Source of the DNA: Zootoca vivipara | Lineage: Eukaryota | DNA length: 64,000 nucleotides | Reading direction: 5' to 3' | Assembly (NCBI RefSeq): GCF_963506605.1 | Contig: NC_083277.1 | Coordinates: 8,742,001-8,806,000, forward strand | Translations under genes and position numbers: made by a program | Part shown: in pieces, positions 1,321 to 62,617 of the stretch | Layout: each line of letters begins with the position of its first letter | How positions within the stretch are numbered: the first letter of the stretch is position 1 | The notes under the pieces: model-generated | Seen by the model: the letters and a program-made list of their open reading frames with translations, nothing else | Told to the model about the DNA's origin: nothing | Databases searched by the model: none

Positions 1321-4089
1321 GGGGAGATGGGGAACCATGCACACTCCCTTGAGCTCCTGGCAGGATTGGTGGAGTATGAATGCAAGGAAGTAAAATACAC
1401 GCAAGCCGTGGGATACATTCAAGCCACACAGAAACCAGAGGTCTGTTTACATGCACACAGACCTCCATCCAAGCAGGTCAGGGGAATAATCGATGGCATA
1501 TTCATTTTGGAGCATTTAAAATATTCAGGGGGATACTCTCATTGCAGACTTTTTTCTTTTTAAAAAAGGGGTTATAATGTTATCTGGTTTTTTCTTAATG
1601 TCCAGATTTTTCCATTAAAAATATACACAATCTAACAGCAAGCTTTAATTTCATTTAATTAAATTACGTTTCATGTCAATTATTTTTATAAGCTTTATAC
1701 AATTAAATACCATTTTGCTTAAATGGTTTCCTGCACTCCATTATTTGTGCATATTTATAATTACTATTACTGCGCTTCATATTCATATTTATCTCTGGTT
1801 ACCATTGCATTTTACAAAATTTTACATTTTACCATTTCATTAAAATGCTTTCAAAGAGGAATAAACAAATGAAAGAGTTCCCTTCTTCTGCTCTCGAGAA
1901 TCTCCTCTTTCTCCCCGATGCAACGTGCAAACTTATTCGTGCAATGGGAAAAGCCAAAATGGCTTGTTTCTCCCGCCACCCTTTCCTGCCCCGCCCCATC
2001 ACCGGCATTCACGTGTTGCAGGGTTCAGACGGTGCCCTCTCACCCGTGTAGAGCTGCTTCCGAAGGGCCCCTCTGCTTGCAAAGACTCCTTCAGCCTCCC
2101 CTGAAAAACCTCTTTGCACCCCAGAGACTGCGATGGCCGGACACCTCCTGCAAAAGACCCACACAAATGGGGACTGGCCAGAGGAAACAGGCAGCCTGGG
2201 ATGTCCTAGTCCTTCGCTTCTTCCCTTTTCCCAGACCTAAAGGATTCTGGGATTTGTAGTCTGTTCCTCTGTGAGGGGGGGTAGTGCCTTTCGGCTCTGG
2301 GGAAGGGTGCTCATTGATTTTTATTATTCCTTTCTATTTACTGACTTACTGGCACACCAGTAAAGGATTGGTGCCCAGCAACAAGAAGAAGAAGGTGAAG
2401 CAAACATGAATTTCAACATGGTTGGATTCTAGAGTTGGAAGGGATCCCGAGGGTCATCCAGTCCAACCTCTGGCAACGCAGGACTCACATGGGGCTCGAA
2501 CCCATGACCCCGAGATTAAGAGTCTCATGCCCCCATCTAAACCAAAAGTACTGATCAGGGAGCAACCTGTGGCTGTTGGCGGCCTCTCAAGCTGACCCAC
2601 CTCACAGGGTTGTTGTGATGGTAGCTAGGAAAGCGGAGAGCACCAGAGGCCGCCATGAGTCCCTTGGAGAAAAGGCAAGAGATGAAAAATGCAGCTGGGC
2701 TCCTAAAGTGGTGTCCTGCCTTCTGGCTAAGGCTCACCCAACACATTTTTAACAGCGGGGATAGAAATTAGAGTACTTTGGCTGCTGCAGCTAGCCAAAC
2801 GCTGCTTTCTCTGCAATCCCCTCTCAGTTTGCAAGAGAGCAGGAGGCGAAAGAGGGAGATGCTGGACAACCTCACTCACTTCCAGTGTAAAACTGCCTTC
2901 AGCCCCCATCGAGGTTGAAACCAGGAGAATTGGGCACTTTTCAAAACCAAGGGGAGCTTACTCTTTTATTTATTTACTGAAAGTTGTCTGCTGTTGGACC
3001 ATTCAAAAAACAAACAAAACTCAAAGCGGAACGGTAAAAATATCAGTAAAAGGAATACCAGGAGCAAAATGGAAAATGTACATTTACTTTATGATGCTTT
3101 GAAATTCGAACTTCAGCGTTCTTAGTATGTTTGTACTCTTACTCATTAGTTTATTAATCCTTTCCTTTAATTTTTTGTTTTGTTTTTCTTACTTAGCTTG
3201 CATAAAGTGAGATTTGTTTATACTCTGTTGAGTGCAGTGCAGTGTGGGAAGGAGTTCTAGATTTTTTTTCTAGACAACCCCATTGCTGCAGACTTACATA
3301 GTAAGTTTTTTCGCTGTTACAAACAGCAGATGTGCTCACAAGAGTTTCCACTGCCATAGTGCAAGGGTTTGCTAGCACAGTTGCTTAAAGATGGCGCTGT
3401 TTGTAGGCGGCTCGACACACAAAGGTATGTGTATGCTGAAGAGTTTGCTAACACAGATGTTTTGATTACACTGTTGTAAGTAGCTCAACACAGGTCTTAA
3501 AACCCGGAGTCCAGAGAAGGGTACAGAGTTTGTCCTCAAGAGACAGTGAACCATGCCCAAAGGCTGTATGGGTGAAGACCATTTTCCTTGGAGAAGGAAG
3601 CTGGGCCGCGTCCAAACGGGCGTGTGTACCAACAAAGCCAACTGTGCAATTTCCTGATAGTCAAAGAGCTATGACGCCATGACTTATCAGAAGTGCAAGA
3701 TGGTATGGCCAATGCCAACTCCAGTTGCAGGTAGTTCCAAAGGTGAACTGCAGCACAGGGCATAAATCGGGGGAGTTTGTTAGGATTCATTCCCCGTCTG
3801 CAGTCATAGGGTTATTGTGTATCATATGACTGTATGTGTTTTCATTCAAACAGAGTGGAAGTGACGTAGACAGGATGTTTACGTGGGACTGTTGTTTCCT
3901 TTGTTTTTTCTCTTTACTGGCTGTGATGCCAGAGAGAGGGAGCCATGATGTAGAGCTCCCAGTTTGTTTATATGTAAATAAAGCAGTTAAGCCTTATTTA
4001 CTGACTTGTGTGTTGTTCATCACGTTTGTGAGAGCAATCGCATATTTGGCCCGTGGGACCAGTCTGACAACTGGCCCCTGGGATGGCCG

Positions 4090-49070: not shown

Positions 49071-50100
49071 ACTTATTATTATTTTAAAAAGCAAACCAAT
49101 CATTCAAATAAGCCGTTCTAACCAAACAGCTTCAGAAAAAGAGATCGGTCCCACAAAACAAAGTTCCTTAACTGTCCACCCATCTCTTTTAACAAAACAA
49201 AACAAAAGCTGATTCAGGCCGTCCGGAGTGAATGGGTGGTTTTCAACGCTAGTGGATTGCGCAACATGTTCCTTACACAATAACAGCACATTAACGGTGG
49301 GTTTATGCTGCTTTTGTTTGCTCGGCAATGGTTCCCCGATGCTGCCACATGACTGCTGACTGGAGGGGGGCTGTAACGCCACAAAAACGGGAAGCGTGAA
49401 CATTTGTGGTATGAAAAGTGACAGCATTTCAGCAGGAAGCTACGGAATATGCATCAAATGCAAAATGGAGCGGCACAACCACCTCCAAACAACTGCAAGT
49501 GTAGGCAGTTTGGGGAGTGGGGTTGTGTGTGGCCTTGCCCAGAGCATCAGGAGGAAAATCACCACAAATGCACGATGAAAAGGGTGTCTTGCAAGAGGCC
49601 TCATACGCCAAAATAACTTGCGAAGCCCTGGATGCTATTCACTGTGACTTGTCTGAGGGGTTGCAAATTGCCTCCCCCCCCCCCAAAGCAGATAATTATA
49701 CTTTATATATGAAGCAAAATATAAAGAGTCCTTATTATATTATTTACCAGATCTCAGTGAATAAAGCAATTTCTCTCCAGGTAAGAAAAATCAAATTAAA
49801 AAAGAGGGGGGGGGAAGCAGATTTGGGCTAGAGTCTGTGAGTTAATGTGGTTTTTTCTTTTCTTACAAATGCAATAAATGAAACAATAAACCAAAATGCA
49901 TAATAAAGAATAAACATAAAGGAAAGAGGAATAACAAGTTTAAAAAGCTGAAGAAATAATGTATAGCATAAAATATATTTCATGGCAGGGTACAAAGTTT
50001 GAATTGATTGCAAAATATATCAGGAATGCATGAAACGTCACCAGATAAAATCACACTTAGCAGATATGTGCCAGCCATGAGACTGGTTGGTCCTATAAAT

Positions 50101-50238
50101 CAGTGTTTCTCAACCAGTGTGCCTCCAGATGTTTTGGGACTACAACTCCCATCATCCCTAGCTAGCAAGACCAGTGGTCAGGAATGATGGGAGTTGTAGT
50201 GCCAAAACATCTGGAGGCACACTGGTTGAGAAACACTG
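50101..50238. mobile_element. Short palindromic hAT MITE
   Basis: CAGTGTTTCTCAACC TIRs; perfect TSD CTATAAAT. Confidence 0.9.
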
Positions 50239-51290
50239 CTATAAATCACAAACAGCCCCCCAACCTGAGGCAAAATACTACCATTACTATTATGATGATT
50301 TATTAAATTTCTATACAGTACTGCCCTTCATCCAAGGATCGCAGGGCGGTTTATAATATAAAAACACAAAAATGTGTATAATAACAAGCAAAAACAATAT
50401 GCGCTGCAATTGCCCTTGGCAGCACATATTTTATAGGATCAGTTTTTCAGAAAAGGCAACGGGCACAACTTTTTAAAACCACATGCTTAAAGAGTAGCAA
50501 GATGCAGCCTTCCATTCTTGAGAGATCACTAAACAAGTGGCAAGCGGCAGGTAATTAATTAATTAATGCTGTGAATCCTGCATTGCAGGGGGTTGGGCTA
50601 GATGACCCTCAGGGTCCTCCTGCCCAACCCTAACATACTGATTCTAACTGTTAGCAAATAAGATCAGCCTTAGCACCCTCAAAGACAGATAAAAGGCGTA
50701 ACTGAGCATCGAAAGTGACCCGTTTTCCACTAACAAAGTGGTCTCCTTACCCATGGTGAAATACAGTACCACGGTAAAGAGTCTCCGAAGCCAAACGGCT
50801 TGCCTGCCCATAGGATCACAGAATTGTAGAGTCAGAAGGGACACCGAGGGTCATCTAGTCCAACCCGCTGCAGTGCAAGAATCTCAGCTAAAACATATGA
50901 TGACCATAAAGTAAAATAAAATAATAAATAAAAATAATAAATCAGCACTTGATCTTGGCTTTGCCTTAAGGGATCTCTCCCTGCTCCCCGCTCCCTTCTA
51001 CCTTGTTATCATGGATGCTTTAGCTGCAATTCCTGCATTGCAGCGGGTTGGGCTAGATGACCCCCGGGGTCCCTTTCCAACTCCACCATATGATTCCGTG
51101 ACAGGGACCCTGTCTCCTTTTAATCCAGTCAGTCCATTGAGCTTCAATGTTGCCTGCTCGGGCTGGCAGAAGCTTTTCAGGGGGTTTCAGGCAAGTGTCA
51201 CTCCAGACAGGCCAGAGATTTGGACCTTGCACCTTGTGCATGCGGAGCAGCTTCCACGACCCTCCTGCTCCCCCAAGCAAGTGGAGGCTC

Positions 51291-51291
<1 letters not shown>

Positions 51292-51330
<39 letters not shown>

Positions 51331-51580
51331 CACTGCATGTAATTTAAGGCAGATCCTGCAAGGGGGGGAGCACACCCCTCTCCCCCATTTATTCCAGGCA
51401 CTTACAGCAGGACAAGCTCCCTCTCTCCCCCCCCCCACCCACCCCAGATCTGCCCCCCCCCCCCGCTTCCCAGCACTCACAGGCTGTGCAGGATTCAAGC
51501 AGGCAAGATCCAGAGCCTGCTTCACCAATGCACCCAAAAGAAGCCCCTGCAAGCAAGGAGGGTCCTTACAGCCCCCGGGA
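51292..51580 (+). repeat. Source copy of a ~250-bp inverted duplication (partner 58582-58830); includes a putative gene C 5'UTR exon donor
   Basis: Reverse complement of 58582-58830; minus-strand donor CAGCCT|GTGAGT at ~51480. Confidence 0.85.
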
Positions 51581-52289
51581 TGTGGGGCTGCAGGGCCCCG
51601 ATTTCCCAACAAAGCTGCTTCCCCTCCGGGAAGGCATCGCCCCCCTCCCCGCCAGTGACCTCACCGCAGCAGGATCCCCTCCCCTCCTTTGAAAATGGGG
51701 GTTAAAGGCATTGTGTGCAAGGAATGCTGGGACTTGTAGTGCTTCTCCCTCCAGCACCTTTTCCTGACCCAAAGCTTTATGGGGTTTGTAGTCTTTCCTG
51801 GCTTCTGGGAGGAAATTTTGGAAGAGGCTTACAGTATATGCATTCCCTTTCAGGGCATGAACAGTCAAGGGCAGGGGTCAAGATAACAAACTTTTTTTAT
51901 ATCAAAGAATGGAAATGGTTTATTGAATATTTACGGATAAATTGCAAACAGATAAAAACATTGTAATAACCTGCAGTTTTATAATATATATTTAAAGTAG
52001 ATAAATAAATGAACAAATTAAATGAATTTGGATACGCAGAAGATATTAAAAAATAAATTTAAGGAACCACAGAAAAAGGGGGAAGGAAGTCAAGTTTTGA
52101 CATGTTAAAATGATTGTAAAATTATTGAAATGTATAAAACTGAAAAGCATTTTTGTAAAAGAAATTATTTTTTAAAATGCTGCGCCATATCCATATCCAT
52201 ATGCAATGGCAGGATTCAGGCCCCCTTCTGAGCTAAATCCTACAGCCGAGACTCTTAGAAGCAGAAGTTGAATTGCTATAAACAGCACT

Positions 52290-52618: not shown

Positions 52619-53204
52619 GTGAGTTGAAATAGAATGGAAGTAGAATGAATGAATGAATGAATGAATGAATGGCCAGTAGCCATTGAAAATCCTCCTTCAA
52701 TTTGCCTAACACTTTTAAAGCCAGCCAAGATGGCAGCCCACCCCAACATTTTATGGTAGTAAGATGGGAAGGTGCATCACATGGGAAGGTGCAAGAGAGG
52801 CCGGATTTCCCTTCTCCAGGTAGCACCAGACCCAGCGTGGCTGGGAGGTGGTTGTCACAGACTCCTAACCCCCAACTCTCATGAGTCTCACCCAGCATAG
52901 ACAACGATCAGGTATGATGGGAGTTATAGCTCAGTTGGTAAAGCATAAGCCTCTTAACCTGTGGGTTGTAAATTCAAAACCCCACATTGGAAAAAAGATT
53001 CCTGCATTTCAGGGGGTTAGACTAGATGGCCCTCGTGGTCCCTTCCAACTCTACAATTCTATGACATCTGGAGGGTCATGGGTTTCCATGCCTTTTGTTT
53101 AAAACACACCTGTGTCTTGAATGAGTGAATTTGTGCCCTGTTTTGAAGGTCCTGTTTCTTCCTTGCTCTCTTTAAATGTCACTATCTACATGTATATTTG
53201 CCAG

Positions 53205-54286
53205 CAGATGCCATTTATTTGCCAGCAGATGCCATTTGGGAGAATGAGGAGCAGAAGGAAATAACATCCAGGGTGTCACCAGAGAGGATCATGACCGAGG
53301 AGGTGGAAATGAAGATTGGGAACCCAGATGAACCACATAGACAGGATGAAACCCTACCAGAGGACGGCAGGAAAGAATCCTCTGCTTTTCAAGGTGGAGA
53401 CCTCCCAGATGTTCAGGAGATGATAGACACTGAAGAGGACAGGAATAAATGTATCACATGTGAGAAAGTATTCAGAGATGACTCAAACCTTAAGCGGCAT
53501 CAGAGAACCCACACAGGAGAAAAACCTTATCAGTGTTTGTATTGCGGGAAGAGTTTTAGCCGGAACACGAACCTTGCTTCACATCACAGAACCCACACAG
53601 GGGAGAAACCGTATATGTGTTCCGTTTGTAGCAAGACCTTTTGTGATAAATCGAGCCTTAACCGACATCAGAGAACCCATACAGGGGAGAGACCGTATGA
53701 GTGTGACGAGTGTGGGAAGAGCTTTGATCTGAGTCAGTCTCTCATTAGCCACCAGAGAACCCACACGGGAGAGAGGCCCTATAGGTGCTCGGAATGTGGG
53801 AAGACTTTCAACCGGAGTCAGAACCTCTGTAGCCACAAGAGAATCCACACGGGAGAGAAACAGCACAAGTGCTCGGAATGCGGAAAAAGTTTCAGCCGCA
53901 GCCAGAACCTTACGAGGCATCAGAGCAGCCACACAGAGGATAAACTGTATAAGTGCCATGAGTGTGGGAAAAGCTTCCGTCTCAGCCAGTCCCTTATAAG
54001 TCACCAGAGAATTCACACGGGAGAGAAACCATATACGTGCTCCCAGTGCGGGAAAAGCTTCAACCGAAGGCAGAACCTTATCAGCCATCAGAGAATCCAC
54101 ACTGGAGAAAAACAGTACAAATGTTCGGAATGTGGGAAAAGCTTCAACTGGAGCCAAGATCTCCTCCGTCATCAGAGGATCCACACAGGAGAACAACCCT
54201 ATCGCTGCACGGAATGTGGGGAACGCTTCAATCGGCGAGAAAATCTTATCAGACACATGAGAATACATCTGGGAGACACCACTTAA
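53205..54286 (+). CDS. Gene D ZNF exon: acidic linker + 10 C2H2 fingers, no KRAB/SCAN
   Basis: Acceptor TTTGCCAG|CA GAT (duplicated at 53226); ten intact fingers; stop TAA at 54286. Confidence 0.9.
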
Positions 54287-54758
54287 GTTGTAATGGGGGG
54301 GGAGTGATCAGAAGCCAGTTCCTTATCATTCATTTGACAATCCACTTTTATTTTTAAAAGCATGCCATTAGAGAGATCTTTGGTGCGACCACATTTCGAA
54401 TAGTGTATACAGTTCTAGTTGCCTCACCTCAAAAAGGATATTGTGGAGTTGGGAAAGTTTCCGAAAAGAGCAACCCAAATGATCAAGGGAATGGATTGAC
54501 TTCTCCGCCCTGTGTCAGAATTGGGATTGTAAACTCCTGAAGGACAGAAACCTATCTTCTTAATATTACTTTGTAACAAAACATGCCCAACACCATTTGT
54601 ATTCAAATACTTTAAAAGGTTTACATCCCCTAGAAAAAATATGTTCCATCGTAAGGCAGAATGTAAGTGTGTGACAAAAAGTAGCTTCAAACATGCCTTG
54701 TTTTCCTTGTTGGGTTTTTTTTTGCTTCACTTAATATTTATTAAACTGATATCCCGCC

Positions 54759-56285
54759 TGTGAGGGACAGGGGATATCGCGAAGTCCCTCCCCTCCTGAG
54801 TTCAAGCCCATCCCCGAGCACAGGGGAAAGCAGAGAGAGTTCCGATGCCAGTGGGGAAGCAGGAAGTCGGGTCCGAGGCTCAGGCAAGGTAGAGGAGCCA
54901 GGGTCCCAGGTGGGACAGGAAGGGGCGAATAAGGGGGGGAGACCCATCCCCCCAACTCCGGAATTACGCAGAAAGAGGAGGGGAAAGAGGATGGGTCTGC
55001 CAAAGCTTTTGTGTTGGAGAAAGACGCGCCAAAAGCCATTCGGAGGTTCTGAAACCGACTGACCACATCACTCCGTGTAAATAGCAATGACTTCAGCACT
55101 GTAAATACGCAGCACCAATAAAAGAATAAAATGCAGAGCTGCGTAGCGTCGTTACTCTGAAGTAGCCCACTCCGGCCACTGTGACAGCAACCTCCGAATC
55201 CTTTTTTGGGCTACTTTGGAGTTGCCGGGATGAGCGTGTCAGAGGCGGAGAGATGGCGGCAGATCGCGGAGCAAGCCCAGCAAGAACTGCAGCAGCTGTC
55301 GCTGCAGGCGCAGGGGGAATTGAAGGCAGGGAGCAACTCAATGAGGCCACGGCCATCCTGGACTCAAGGTGGGGGGTGGGGGGCCTGGAGTACCTCATGG
55401 CATGGGAGGACGCCCCGCCATCCCAAAATGAATGGGTCCCAGCCACCCAGATACAAGAGGAATTCTTAGTGGAAGAATTCCACGCCCTCTTCCCACACAG
55501 GCCCAAGCCCTGGCACATGGAAAGGGAGGGGGAGGGGGAGGAAGCACGGGAGAGCAGTTCACCATGGCGCTGGGAAGCGGAGTTTGAGGAACCAGAGGAT
55601 GAGGTATGGGTGTCACCGAGATCCACCCAGTCAGAGGAAGGAGCAGATTGGCAGAACATTTTTACCCCTACCAGCTCTGACGCCACAGACTTTTTGGGAT
55701 TCCCGTCCTCCCAGGCGGAAGGGGGGGGCTCGCAGGACTGGGGGGAGGTGTTCACACCAACGGGCTCGGAAAGCACTGAGTTCTTAGGCTTCCAGTCGTC
55801 ACCGACACCTGGGGGGGACCTGGGGAGGGGTGAAGGAGAGCTTGGGAGGGGGGTGGATGTGAGGGACAGGGGATATCGCGAAGTCCCTCCCCTCCTGAGT
55901 TCAAGCCCATCCCCGAGCACAGGGGAAAGCAGAGAGAGTTCCGATGCCAGTGGGGAAGCAGGAAGTCGGGTCCGAGGCTCAGGCAAGGTAGAGGAGCCAG
56001 GGTCCCAGGTGGGACAGGAAGGGGCGAATAAGGGGGGGAGACCCATCCCCCCAACTCCGGAATTACGCAGAAAGAGGAGGGGAAAGAGGATGGGTCTGCC
56101 AAAGCTTTTGTGTTGGAGAAAGACGCGTCAAAAGCCATTCGGAGGTTCTGAAACCGACTGACCACATCACTCCGTGTAAATAGCAATGACTTCAGCACTG
56201 TAAATACGCAGCACCAATAAAAGAATAAAATGCAGAGCTGCGTAGCGTCGTTACTCTGAAGTAGCCCACTCCGGCCACTGTGACA
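54759..56285 (+). mobile_element. Young non-autonomous Tf1/sushi-type (chromovirus) LTR retrotransposon, 1527 bp
   Basis: LTRs 54759-55186 and 55858-56285 (428 bp, TG...CA, one mismatch seen); TSD CCGCC; PPT GGGAGGGGGGTGGA; PBS complementary to the LTR itself; chromodomain ORF. Confidence 0.93.
55253..56161 (+). CDS. Element ORF (302 aa): integrase-type chromodomain + acidic region with two FLGF motifs + basic patch, reading into the 3' LTR
   Basis: AILDSRWGVGGLEYLMAWEDAPPSQNEWVPATQIQEEFLVEEFHALFPHRPKP is a chromovirus chromodomain; a Gag-like coiled-coil start (MSVSEAERWRQIAEQAQQELQQL, ATG 55230) lies in another frame. Confidence 0.65.
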   Translation: MAADRGASPARTAAAVAAGAGGIEGREQLNEATAILDSRWGVGGLEYLMAWEDAPPSQNEWVPATQIQEEFLVEEFHALFPHRPKPWHMEREGEGEEARESSSPWRWEAEFEEPEDEVWVSPRSTQSEEGADWQNIFTPTSSDATDFLGFPSSQAEGGGSQDWGEVFTPTGSESTEFLGFQSSPTPGGDLGRGEGELGRGVDVRDRGYREVPPLLSSSPSPSTGESRESSDASGEAGSRVRGSGKVEEPGSQVGQEGANKGGRPIPPTPELRRKRRGKRMGLPKLLCWRKTRQKPFGGSETD

Positions 56286-56359
56286 CCGCCTTTATTTCTG
56301 AAGGAGTCTATATGCAATGCATTGCTAGCAACAGGAGATTTACTCAGAAAATTTTACTA

Positions 56360-58525: not shown

Positions 58526-58581
<56 letters not shown>

Positions 58582-58583
<2 letters not shown>

Positions 58584-58827
58584 CCCGGGGGCTGTAAGGA
58601 CCCTCCTTGCTTGCAGGGGCTTCCTTTGGGTGCATTGGAGAAGCAGGCTCTGGATCTTGCCTGCTTGAATCCTGCACAGCCTGTGAGTGCTGGGAAGCGG
58701 GGAGGGGGCAGATCTGGGGTGGGTGAGGGGAGAGAAAGGGAGCCTGTCCTGCTGTAAGTGCCTGGAATAAATGGGGGGAGGGGTGCGCTCCCCCCTTGCA
58801 GGAGCCTGCCTTAAATTACATGCAGTG

Positions 58828-58830
<3 letters not shown>
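58582..58830 (-). repeat. Inverted duplicate of 51329-51580 embedded in (AAT)n tracts
   Basis: Direct sequence match; flanked by AAT repeats at 58527-58582 and 58828-58906. Confidence 0.85.
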
Positions 58831-58908
<78 letters not shown>

Positions 58909-58909
58909 A

Positions 58910-59208
58910 AAGCGAGTCCCCCAATGGGCGGCGAAAGCTGCGCATCCTCAGCACCGGCCACCCTAGGAGCCAGCCCGCGCGCGAAGAGTTAAAACGATAG
59001 AGCTGCAGCAGCGCCTCCGCCGCCGCCGCCGAGGAGAGGCGGACGAAGAACACTCTCTGCCCACCTCTTACCAGTTCAGGAGAGGGAGGCTGGGGACAGA
59101 GCGGAGGCCCCTCGCTGCTCCCTCGCCCTCCCAGCCCAGCCCCCCCCCCACCCGGCCAGGGCTTCTTGCAGAGCGAGGGCATCTGCGCCCGGGAATCCGC
59201 TCCAGGAG
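58910..59208 (+). promoter_or_regulatory. CpG island promoter and probable non-coding first exon of an unidentified + strand gene
   Basis: CCAAT, GC boxes, TTAAAA, (GCC)n, dense CpG; donor CAGGAG|GTGAGT at 59208/59209. Confidence 0.6.
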
Positions 59209-60961: not shown

Positions 60962-61447
60962 GTTACAGGTACCGGTAGGTAGCCGTGTTGGTCTGAGTCG
61001 AAGCAAAATAAAAAAATTCCTTCAGTAGCACCTTAAAGACCAACTAAGTTTTTATTTTGGTATGAGCTTCCGTGTGCATGCACACTTCTTCAGATACACT
61101 TGAAACAGAAGTAACCAGACCCTTATGTATATACAGAGGGTGGTGGGGGTGGGTGGGAATGGTTGATGGGCTGATAGGATGATCATGATCTAGCTTTCTT
61201 TTGTGCCTTGCTTCCCCCCCCCCCCCGCAGGACCAATTGCAGTCATCAGCAGTCGTTAACAGCCATCAACAGGTTCACCACTCCCATCAGCCCATCACCC
61301 ATTCCCACCCACCCCCACCCTCTGAATATACATAAGGGTCTGGTTGATTCTGTTTCAGTGTATCTGACGAAGTGTGCATGCACACGAAAGCTCATACCAA
61401 AATAAAAACTTAGTTGGTCTTTAAGGTGCTACTGAAGGAATTTTTTT
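60962..61447. mobile_element. Penelope-like element remnant with inverted terminal segments
   Basis: ~61010-61175 mirrored at ~61285-61447; same terminal sequence as at 28556 and 57887. Confidence 0.75.
61360..61397 (+). ncRNA. Minimal hammerhead ribozyme motif (Penelope-associated)
   Basis: GTAT-CTGACGA-A-GTGTGCATGCACAC-GAAA-GCTC-ATAC: CUGANGA and GAAA core, stem II, CUC cleavage triplet, 4-bp stem I. Confidence 0.7.
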
Positions 61448-62617
61448 ATGAATTTGATATATTCTTTATGTTATGTCCTTTAGTGCTTACATGGTTTTGA
61501 TGCTGATTCTGTTGAACTTCTGGTGGTATACTTTTCTTTAGGCACTTTTCTTTATTATTTATTTCTTTATAATATTTATAGCCTGCCCTTCCTCTGTACG
61601 ATACCAGGGCGGGGAACGGAACATAACATGAAATAATAACAGACAACCTCGTCATGAAATGGACAACAATGTGTACTAAAATACACCAAATAAAATAAGG
61701 TTTTTTTTTTAAAAAAAACAAAACCCTTAAACTTGATATGCTGTCAATTCAACCCATTTGATTAACGTTACGCCGTAAATGCGTCAAGAGCAATTTTATA
61801 ATTAATCCACCAAGGGAAGCATTTCAGGGCTACAATGCATTTTTAAAAATGCTGGTTTTTACCTTGTAAAATTTAAGATTTAAATTTGCCCCTTTAAGAG
61901 CTACAATGCTCCAACTTCCCCAGAGAAAAGGACACTTTGAGAATTGTAGTTCTGTGAGGGGAATAGGCGTCTCCTGACAACCAGGGGTGTTGTGGTAAGC
62001 TGTGCCTTCGGATCCCAGACTCCAGCTCCCATCATCCCTGACCATTGGCTCTGTTCGCAGGGGCTGATGGGAGTTGGAGTCCGGCAACATCAAGAGGCCT
62101 CCTGGTTGGGGAAGGATGATATATAGCACAAAGTCTGCTCAACTGTTAAAAAAATTGTCTGCAGACTGTACATTTCGCTCTTCCTTTGCCTCCTCAAGTT
62201 GAGCTGTGGTGATTAAATTTCCTAACCAATTCCAGTTGCTCAGCTGATATCTCATCCGGGAGATGCACTCTGTCACGCGCCAGAAGGATTTCTAATAGAA
62301 CTGCAACCCAAATTTCCAGACATTTAACTTTTTTTATTTGTATTTACACCCAGTGCTATTTTTCTAGTCAAGGTTGGCAGGATTTGTACTTCTGTAGAAA
62401 TTGGAGTTCTTGGTGAAGTCCAGAAATAAACAGTAAATTACAAGAACTCGGGCCAGGAGGAAGATGAATTTCAAGTAAGTCTTCAAAAGGTTTTATTTAT
62501 GTAATGATGAGATGAATTCAAATAGGAATCAATTCCAGTATGATAGTGAGGCAAATAAAGATAAATTCCAGTGAAAAAAATCCCAGGACAAGGCCCTGTT
62601 TTGACAATTCTTCATCA

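What the first reader, a model, noticed from the sequence alone, without database searches (positions are those of the whole stretch)
55038..55222. tRNA-independent self-priming signals in the LTR element
Seen: no TGG-type tRNA PBS follows the 5' LTR. Instead AACCTCCGAAT (55189-55199) is the exact reverse complement of ATTCGGAGGTT in the LTR (55038-55048), upstream of the AATAAA signals. U5 55154-55169 can also pair with leader 55207-55222 as a 16-bp stem with two G-U pairs. Established: Tf1 primes reverse transcription with the first 11 nt of its own RNA and needs a U5-leader stem; this is also proposed for vertebrate sushi elements. Inference: transcription starts at ~55038 and the element self-primes.
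Basis: partly seen in the sequence, partly recalled or inferred. Interest (0 to 1): 0.7.

Follow-up and report, generated by a model that had tools for sequence, protein, structure and literature searches.

The report
Self-priming sushi-type retrotransposon in a lizard
This is a young, internally deleted copy of a reptile jumping gene whose copy-start site pairs exactly with 11 letters of its own end repeat, and both sites change together across its relatives, so the family likely starts copying its RNA with its own front end rather than a host tRNA, as fission-yeast Tf1 is known to do.

Summary
Observation confirmed. 55189-55199 lies 2 nt after a TSD-defined 5' LTR (54759-55186) and is the exact reverse complement of 55038-55048 (14 of 20,000 shuffles match as well). 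There is no TGG, and the 16-bp U5-leader stem is real. The element is a single 4.3-kb internal deletion of a 5.8-kb Ty3/gypsy chromovirus with about 1,900 PBS-bearing copies in this genome. Five PBS alleles each carry the complementary R allele (88 of 90 sampled copies), primer position 4 uses all four Watson-Crick pairs, and only 15 copies genome-wide were found discordant at that position. Sister families use other self-complementary primers about 30 nt behind TATA-like boxes. The start site is not mapped, because RNA-seq was uninformative. This is a new family of the Tf1/sushi group, for which self-priming is already proposed. Extras: the pattern fits copying of the primer into the PBS, and the integrase frame runs through all of U3 and the primer under purifying selection. 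The scan earlier noted self-priming signatures in Copia and BEL/Pao elements on other DNA; neither look-up returned this group.

The parts
54754..54758 (+). left target-site duplication CCGCC
54759..55186 (+). 5' LTR, 428 bp, TG..CA; U3 about 54759-55037, R from 55038 (inferred), U5 to 55186
   Evidence: 1 mismatch to the 3' LTR
55035..55040 (+). initiator-like GCCATT with the A at 55038 (consensus recalled; degenerate); no canonical TATA at -30 in this family
   Evidence: sequence
55038..55048 (+). predicted 11-nt self-primer (5' end of R)
55117..55130 (+). two AATAAA polyadenylation hexamers (55117, 55125)
55154..55169 (+). U5 arm of the U5-leader stem
55171..55184 (+). weak short hairpin just 5' of the PBS; candidate third duplex of the Tf1-type structure
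   Evidence: helix 3: 94.2% of cells paired, no two-sided change; forms it in only some copies
55189..55199 (+). non-tRNA primer-binding site, 2 nt after the LTR's terminal CA
55207..55222 (+). leader arm of the U5-leader stem
55230..55329 (+). first 100 nt of gag (ATG at 55230), cut by the deletion
55322..55329 (+). 8-bp microhomology GAAGGCAG at the joint of a deletion of about 4.28 kb (most of gag; PR, RT, RNase H and the integrase core); the joint is unique in the genome
55346..55483 (+). integrase chromodomain remnant (Pfam Chromo, E 7.5e-7)
55484..56161 (+). integrase C-terminal tail frame, running through the PPT, all of U3 and the R copy of the primer; stop at 56159-56161
55844..55853 (+). 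polypurine tract GGGAGGGGGG
55858..56285 (+). 3' LTR (its R copy of the primer is at 56137-56147)
56286..56290 (+). right target-site duplication CCGCC

Best explanation
The stretch is the 5' leader of a deleted copy of a young lizard Ty3/gypsy chromovirus whose primer site is complementary to, and covaries with, 11 nt of its own LTR, so the family likely self-primes reverse transcription like Tf1. Shown: LTR ends, PBS position, exact complementarity, covariation across five alleles, a conserved U5-leader stem, and chromovirus gene order in full-length copies. Inferred from Tf1: transcription starts at about 55038; nt 1-11 fold onto the PBS, which sits in the loop of the U5-leader stem; RNase H cuts between nt 11 and 12; RT extends the freed 3' end at 55048 into U5. 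Inferred from the copy patterns: plus-strand synthesis copies the primer into the new PBS, so a change in R would be written into the PBS within a cycle or two. This copy has no RT and could be mobilised only in trans; its unique joint gives no sign that it ever was.
For: Geometry and chance level. Family: gag with CCHC, then pol with PR-RT-RNase H-IN-chromodomain; -1 slippery site GGGAAAC with a downstream stem; RT groups with vertebrate and chytrid chromovirus proteins. Covariation: copies picked on the PBS alone carry the exact complement in R in 30 of 30, 29 of 30 and 29 of 30. In 31 aligned copies the duplex is 100% paired; position 4 is CG 15, UA 9, AU 6, GC 1 and position 2 is UA 20, CG 11; 0 of 500 shuffles reach the score. 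The tree needs at least 5 allele changes. Discordant copies are rare: 5, 10 and 0 against 1,241, 577 and 105 PBS matches. 9 of the 15 are CpG-type G>A changes, and all 6 allele-swapped copies carry the same R allele in both LTRs. Other families: 20 of 22 elements with TSD-defined ends have a self-match of 10-12 nt at the same place, among them 7 of 8 from other families with different primer sequences. TATA-like boxes lie 31-33 nt upstream of those primers. Literature: PMC7175516, PMC11042837, PMC6317226 and bioRxiv 2022.12.06.519325 (passages).
Against: The 5' end of the RNA is not mapped, and this family has no canonical TATA at -30. Only 2 of the 11 pairs vary, so the other 9 say nothing. 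Neutral markers between R and the PBS are also in fairly tight linkage, so part of the agreement is shared descent; the weight rests on about 5 events, not on thousands of copies. The U5-leader stem shows no two-sided change (4 one-sided), and the third duplex is weak. Because U3 and the primer also code for protein, conservation of R has a second possible cause. Two of 22 TSD-defined elements lack the match (an old copy with 82% LTR identity, and one with 93%). No cleavage or priming was observed.
Confidence: 0.9

Rival explanations
1. The R-PBS pairing is real and selected, but it serves folding, dimerisation or packaging, or the primer is cut from inside a longer RNA that starts upstream of 55038.
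For: The start site is unmapped and there is no canonical TATA in this family. A few extra pairs are possible just upstream (55032-55035 with 55202-55205).
Against: No other primer source was found. The duplex ends with its 3' end pointing into U5, 2 nt from the LTR end, in several unrelated families, and it sits about 30 nt behind TATA-like boxes in those families. Unlike the neighbouring stem it tolerates no G-U.
Confidence: 0.07
2. Priming uses a tRNA half or another host small RNA, and the match to R is secondary.
For: Half-tRNA priming exists in some Copia lineages (PMC6317226, passages). Only 25 distinct tRNA genes of 10 anticodon types were tested.
Against: No TGG. The longest complement in the tRNAs tested is 6 nt. 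Five PBS alleles would need five host RNAs, and R changes with each allele.
Confidence: 0.02
3. The inverted 11-mer is chance and is kept by common descent.
For: The copies are closely related, and markers nearby are linked.
Against: p is about 7e-4 for the single copy. There are at least 5 two-sided changes, and the same geometry occurs with unrelated letters in other families.
Confidence: 0.01

Closest known systems
Tf1/Tf2 of Schizosaccharomyces pombe (self-primed Ty3/gypsy chromoviruses)
   Same: 11-nt R-PBS duplex next to the 5' LTR, no tRNA PBS, a stem between U5 and the sequence 3' of the PBS, and an integrase chromodomain. Tf1 facts are from passages of PMC7175516 (first 11 bases, RNase H cut between 11 and 12), bioRxiv 2022.12.06.519325 (three duplexes) and PMC11042837 (PBS copied into cDNA).
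   Different: Vertebrate host; CCHC gag and a -1 slippery site instead of a single ORF without CCHC; the third duplex is weak here; the pol frame runs through U3 and the primer; the mechanism is untested here.
Vertebrate Tf1/sushi elements (sushi-ichi of Takifugu; GyDB V-clade Amn-ichi/ni/san; Butler et al. 2001)
   Same: Domain order, chromodomain, -1 frameshift, DUF4939/Ty3-capsid gag and predicted self-priming. The nearest named proteins are from Podarcis muralis (65-70% over RT-IN) and Anolis (about 50%).
   Different: A lizard family with its own primer alleles and an FLDD RT motif. Sushi-ichi itself was not in the tree. Butler 2001 was seen only as a reference, so what it already shows for reptiles or for covariation is unknown to me.
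Plant CRM and some Reina chromoviruses whose gag-pol frame extends into the 3' LTR
   Same: The pol frame runs past the PPT into the LTR (PMC3605345, passages).
   Different: Those elements are tRNA-primed, and in CRM the CR motif itself lies downstream of the PPT. Here a standard chromodomain lies upstream, and an acidic then basic tail covers the whole of U3 and the self-primer.
PEG10/RTL1 (sushi-ichi-related mammalian genes)
   Same: Related gag (one hit is labelled PEG10). The GGGAAAC slippery site resembles that of PEG10 (recalled).
   Different: Those are domesticated genes without LTRs or a PBS; this is a recently amplifying element.

Membership tests
Ty3/gypsy chromovirus | LTRs with TG..CA ends, TSD and PPT | tested here: met
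   (5-bp TSD exact in 9 of 10 full-length copies)
Ty3/gypsy chromovirus | gag, then PR-RT-RNase H-IN with a C-terminal chromodomain; no env | tested here: met
   on a 5.8-kb copy; the window copy keeps only the chromodomain
Tf1/sushi group | RT falls with fungal and vertebrate chromoviruses rather than tRNA-primed ones | tested here: met
   groups with Podarcis, Anolis, Xenopus, fish and Batrachochytrium proteins. Quick tree, rooted on one TGG-PBS locus; Tf1 and sushi-ichi themselves were not included.
Tf1/sushi group | No tRNA PBS | tested here: met
   No TGG; at most 6 nt complement in 25 distinct tRNA genes, a partial set
Tf1/sushi group | PBS complementary to about 11 nt of the 5' LTR | tested here: met
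Tf1/sushi group | The complementary stretch is the 5' end of the RNA | tested here: inconclusive
   RNA-seq lays could not map a start; indirect TATA spacing in sister families
Tf1/sushi group | Duplex between U5 and the sequence 3' of the PBS | tested here: met
   98.2% of cells paired in 31 copies, one-sided changes only; forms when the PBS is held open
Tf1/sushi group | Duplex involving the sequence 5' of the PBS (third arm of the pretzel) | tested here: inconclusive
   5-pair hairpin, 94.2% paired, register shifts between subfamilies; predicted in only some copies
Tf1/sushi group | -1 frameshift between gag and pol (usual outside fission yeasts) | tested here: met
   GGGAAAC plus a stem, with pol in the -1 frame; frameshifting itself was not assayed
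Tf1/sushi group | RNase H cleavage after nt 11 and extension of the primer | not testable with these tools
   needs biochemistry or sequencing of strong-stop DNA
TRIM / amplified non-autonomous family | The deleted form occurs in several copies | tested here: not met
   The joint pattern (1 mismatch allowed) has 1 match in the genome, the window itself

The most novel reading that the evidence does not exclude
This family is a population-scale record of self-priming in a vertebrate. The PBS is rewritten from the element's own primer at each replication (all four Watson-Crick pairs, no wobble intermediates, rare swap intermediates with both LTRs alike). The same 11 nt are read three ways: as transcription start, as primer, and as codons of an integrase tail that spans all of U3 under purifying selection. 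The alleles seen are all ones that keep Phe or Leu at that codon.
Probability: 0.55. Interest if true: 0.55.

Novelty: new member of a known kind. Interest (0 to 1): 0.4.

Why it matters
Self-priming is proven only in fission-yeast Tf1. The passages I could read describe it for vertebrate sushi elements as proposed from complementarity. This family supplies comparative evidence (two-sided changes, rare swap intermediates) and natural matched and mismatched leaders, which make the question testable in a vertebrate. It also belongs to the lineage related to PEG10/RTL1. The coding U3 suggests why the promoter lacks a TATA box and points to an unstudied integrase tail. The mechanism itself is not new.

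Tried and rejected
RNA evidence: no holder of the stretch is on record as RNA. Three 2026 RNA-seq runs (about 6% of each read) and one contig set were laid. No pile-up of starts appeared at 55038 or 55049. Reads come mostly from diverged copies and from read-through into LTRs at other loci, so this is no evidence either way. A dip and rise in depth across R in one run may be mapping bias. Nested folding of 55038-55240 was not significant and cannot show the crossed structure. The TRIM reading was rejected. Mapping the strand-transfer crossover from markers in discordant copies was uninformative. In one search, 9 of 40 regions gave no LTR pair and 9 gave no TSD; they are left out of the 20-of-22 count (2 of those 9 still show a 10-11 nt match). 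In the F2 family, 13 of 16 copies with the LTR-end motif match within 1 mismatch over 11 nt, and 5 of 21 lacked the motif. Metagenome scan: 27 of 79 loci had enough flank and 15 showed a terminal repeat. Of 6 with a CA end, 3 had an 11-13 nt self-match, 1 had 9 nt, 1 had TGG and 1 had none. The gag found no solved-structure match. Primary papers not held: Levin 1995, Lin and Levin 1997 (RNA) and 1998, Atwood-Moore 2006, Esnault and Levin 2015; Butler 2001 was seen only in reference lists. Searches for a published covariation analysis or a lizard case listed none, but the library lacks most subscription papers and bioRxiv supplements were not seen.

Full report
Observation. The LTR ends do not depend on this idea: two 428-bp repeats, 54759-55186 and 55858-56285, differ at one base, begin TG, end CA and are flanked by CCGCC. 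The site begins 2 nt after the CA. The 3' end of the R stretch pairs with 55189, so extension would run straight into U5. No TGG follows the LTR, and 14 of 20,000 shuffles give as long a match. The 16-bp stem with two G-U pairs is present. The two duplexes cross, so nested folding shows only one at a time. With the PBS held open the U5-leader stem forms, and the primer duplex alone is predicted at -15.9 kcal/mol.

What the element is. The window copy is 1,527 bp. Ten copies fetched from the same genome are 5.8 kb (one is 7.4 kb), with LTRs differing by 0-4 bases and exact 5-bp TSDs in 9 of 10. They carry gag (Retrotrans_gag, Ty3_capsid, DUF4939, CCHC) and pol (protease, RT, RNase H, integrase, SH3, chromodomain), joined by a GGGAAAC slippery site and a stem. 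The window copy lost about 4.28 kb at an 8-bp microhomology, and this joint occurs once in the genome. It is therefore one broken copy and not an amplified miniature family. The nearest named proteins are from Podarcis muralis (65-70%), then Anolis, snakes, amphibians, fish and fungi. A quick RT tree of 30 rows places the family among vertebrate chromoviruses; Tf1 and sushi-ichi were not in it. The host is a lizard by these hits.

Covariation. A difference seen at both 55041 and 55196 in contigs of one run led to pattern searches on the PBS alone: 1,241, 577 and 105 matches for three patterns. I examined the first 30 listed of each. The exact complement lay in R, 140-152 nt upstream, in 30 of 30, 29 of 30 and 29 of 30. 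One miss has a single mismatch and one has no recognisable R. Five allele pairs occur. In 31 copies that I chose for diversity from these 90 plus the window, every cell of the duplex is paired, position 4 shows all four Watson-Crick types and position 2 shows two, and 0 of 500 shuffles reach the score. A tree of 89 copies built without these columns needs at least 5 changes; recombination blurs this tree. Some subfamilies are only 75% identical in the LTR and keep the pairing. Genome-wide, discordant copies number 5, 10 and 0 (these patterns need exact flanks, so the denominators are approximate). Nine are G>A at a CpG. The six true swaps have the same R allele in both LTRs, so they likely arose during reverse transcription, and none founded a subfamily. 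Against over-reading: nine of eleven pairs never vary, and neutral markers between the two sites are also linked.

Other families. A DUF4939 search gave further sushi-type families. Among 22 elements whose ends were fixed by LTR pair and TSD, 20 have a 10-12 nt self-match at the same place, including 7 of 8 outside the window's family, with unrelated primer letters. In those families and in three metagenome relatives a TATA-like box lies 31-33 nt upstream of the match, the spacing expected if the match is the start of the RNA. The window's family has no such box, only an initiator-like context (consensus recalled).

Mechanism. From passages of PMC7175516: the first 11 bases of Tf1 RNA pair with the PBS and RNase H cuts between bases 11 and 12. 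From bioRxiv 2022.12.06.519325: a three-duplex structure is needed, and self-priming is a common feature of the Tf1/sushi group. From PMC11042837: about half of Tf1 cDNA carries a reverse-transcribed PBS at its 3' end. I infer the same for this family. Copying of the primer into the PBS would explain why this duplex shows only exact pairs while the neighbouring stem varies through G-U pairs; a strict demand of RNase H for perfect pairing would explain it too. The U5-leader stem is conserved but shows no two-sided change, and the third duplex is weak. The start site is not shown: RNA-seq lays were uninformative. A tRNA fragment is unlikely but was tested only on 25 distinct tRNA genes.

A side result. 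The pol frame continues past the chromodomain, through the PPT, all of U3 and the R copy of the primer, and stops about 10 nt after it. This holds in several subfamilies and in a sister family about 61% identical in RT, while other copies examined are broken by frameshifts. U3 is 279 nt in 91 of 104 copies. The frame is open in 57 of 69 distinct copies, against 2 and 2 in the other forward frames, although two reverse frames are also mostly open (53 and 63). Pairwise pN/pS over 12 representatives is 0.31 in the pol frame against 1.24 and 1.18 in the others (pairs are not independent). All five primer alleles encode Phe or Leu, which may also be a by-product of the genetic code. Frames extending into the 3' LTR are known for plant CRM and some Reina elements (PMC3605345, passages).

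Novelty and verdict. Self-priming is the expected state of this group (PMC6317226, PMC4600332; passages). My searches listed no lizard case or covariation analysis, but the primary papers, including Butler 2001, were not held. PMC11011659, PMC3601003 and PMC5006619 were seen as passages and add only context. Earlier scan notes concern Copia and BEL/Pao elements or unrelated loci of this genome and did not change my reading. Verdict: real, a new family of a known kind, with unusually good comparative support; interest 0.4.

Noticed in passing
window 55484-56161 and family copies: The integrase frame runs through the PPT, all of U3 and the primer copy in R, with an acidic/Ser-rich stretch and a basic RRKRRGKR motif; U3 shows pN/pS 0.31 in that frame. 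A Podarcis muralis protein (P0005) ends similarly.
   Followed up: partly
full-length copies of the family: The RT catalytic motif reads FLDD in all 7 copies checked, whereas sister families have YLDD; the family amplified recently all the same.
   Followed up: partly
window 53147-54286 and 54759: A C2H2 zinc-finger exon (about 10 fingers) ends about 470 bp upstream of the insertion on the same strand; the LTR's AATAAA signals could end that transcript.
   Followed up: no
window 55253-56161: After the deletion, an ATG at 55253 is in frame with the chromodomain and tail (about 300 aa); probably chance.
   Followed up: no
G000: At least five further sushi-type gag families occur in the genome; one has many near-identical copies with 100% identical LTRs.
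   Followed up: partly
L113, L135 and related loci: One sister family has LTRs of variable length with internal tandem repeats between primer and PBS (about 165-494 nt apart), and a 10-nt rather than 11-nt perfect match in most copies.
   Followed up: partly
window 51292-51581 and 58526-58913: Long inverted repeats next to (ATT)n microsatellites, 7 kb apart, likely two copies of another repeat family.
   Followed up: no
window 61008-61449; 46864-46999; 50086-50253: Short elements with long terminal inverted repeats (MITE-like), several copies.
   Followed up: no
window 2480-2551: tRNA-Lys(CTT)-like gene on the minus strand.
   Followed up: no
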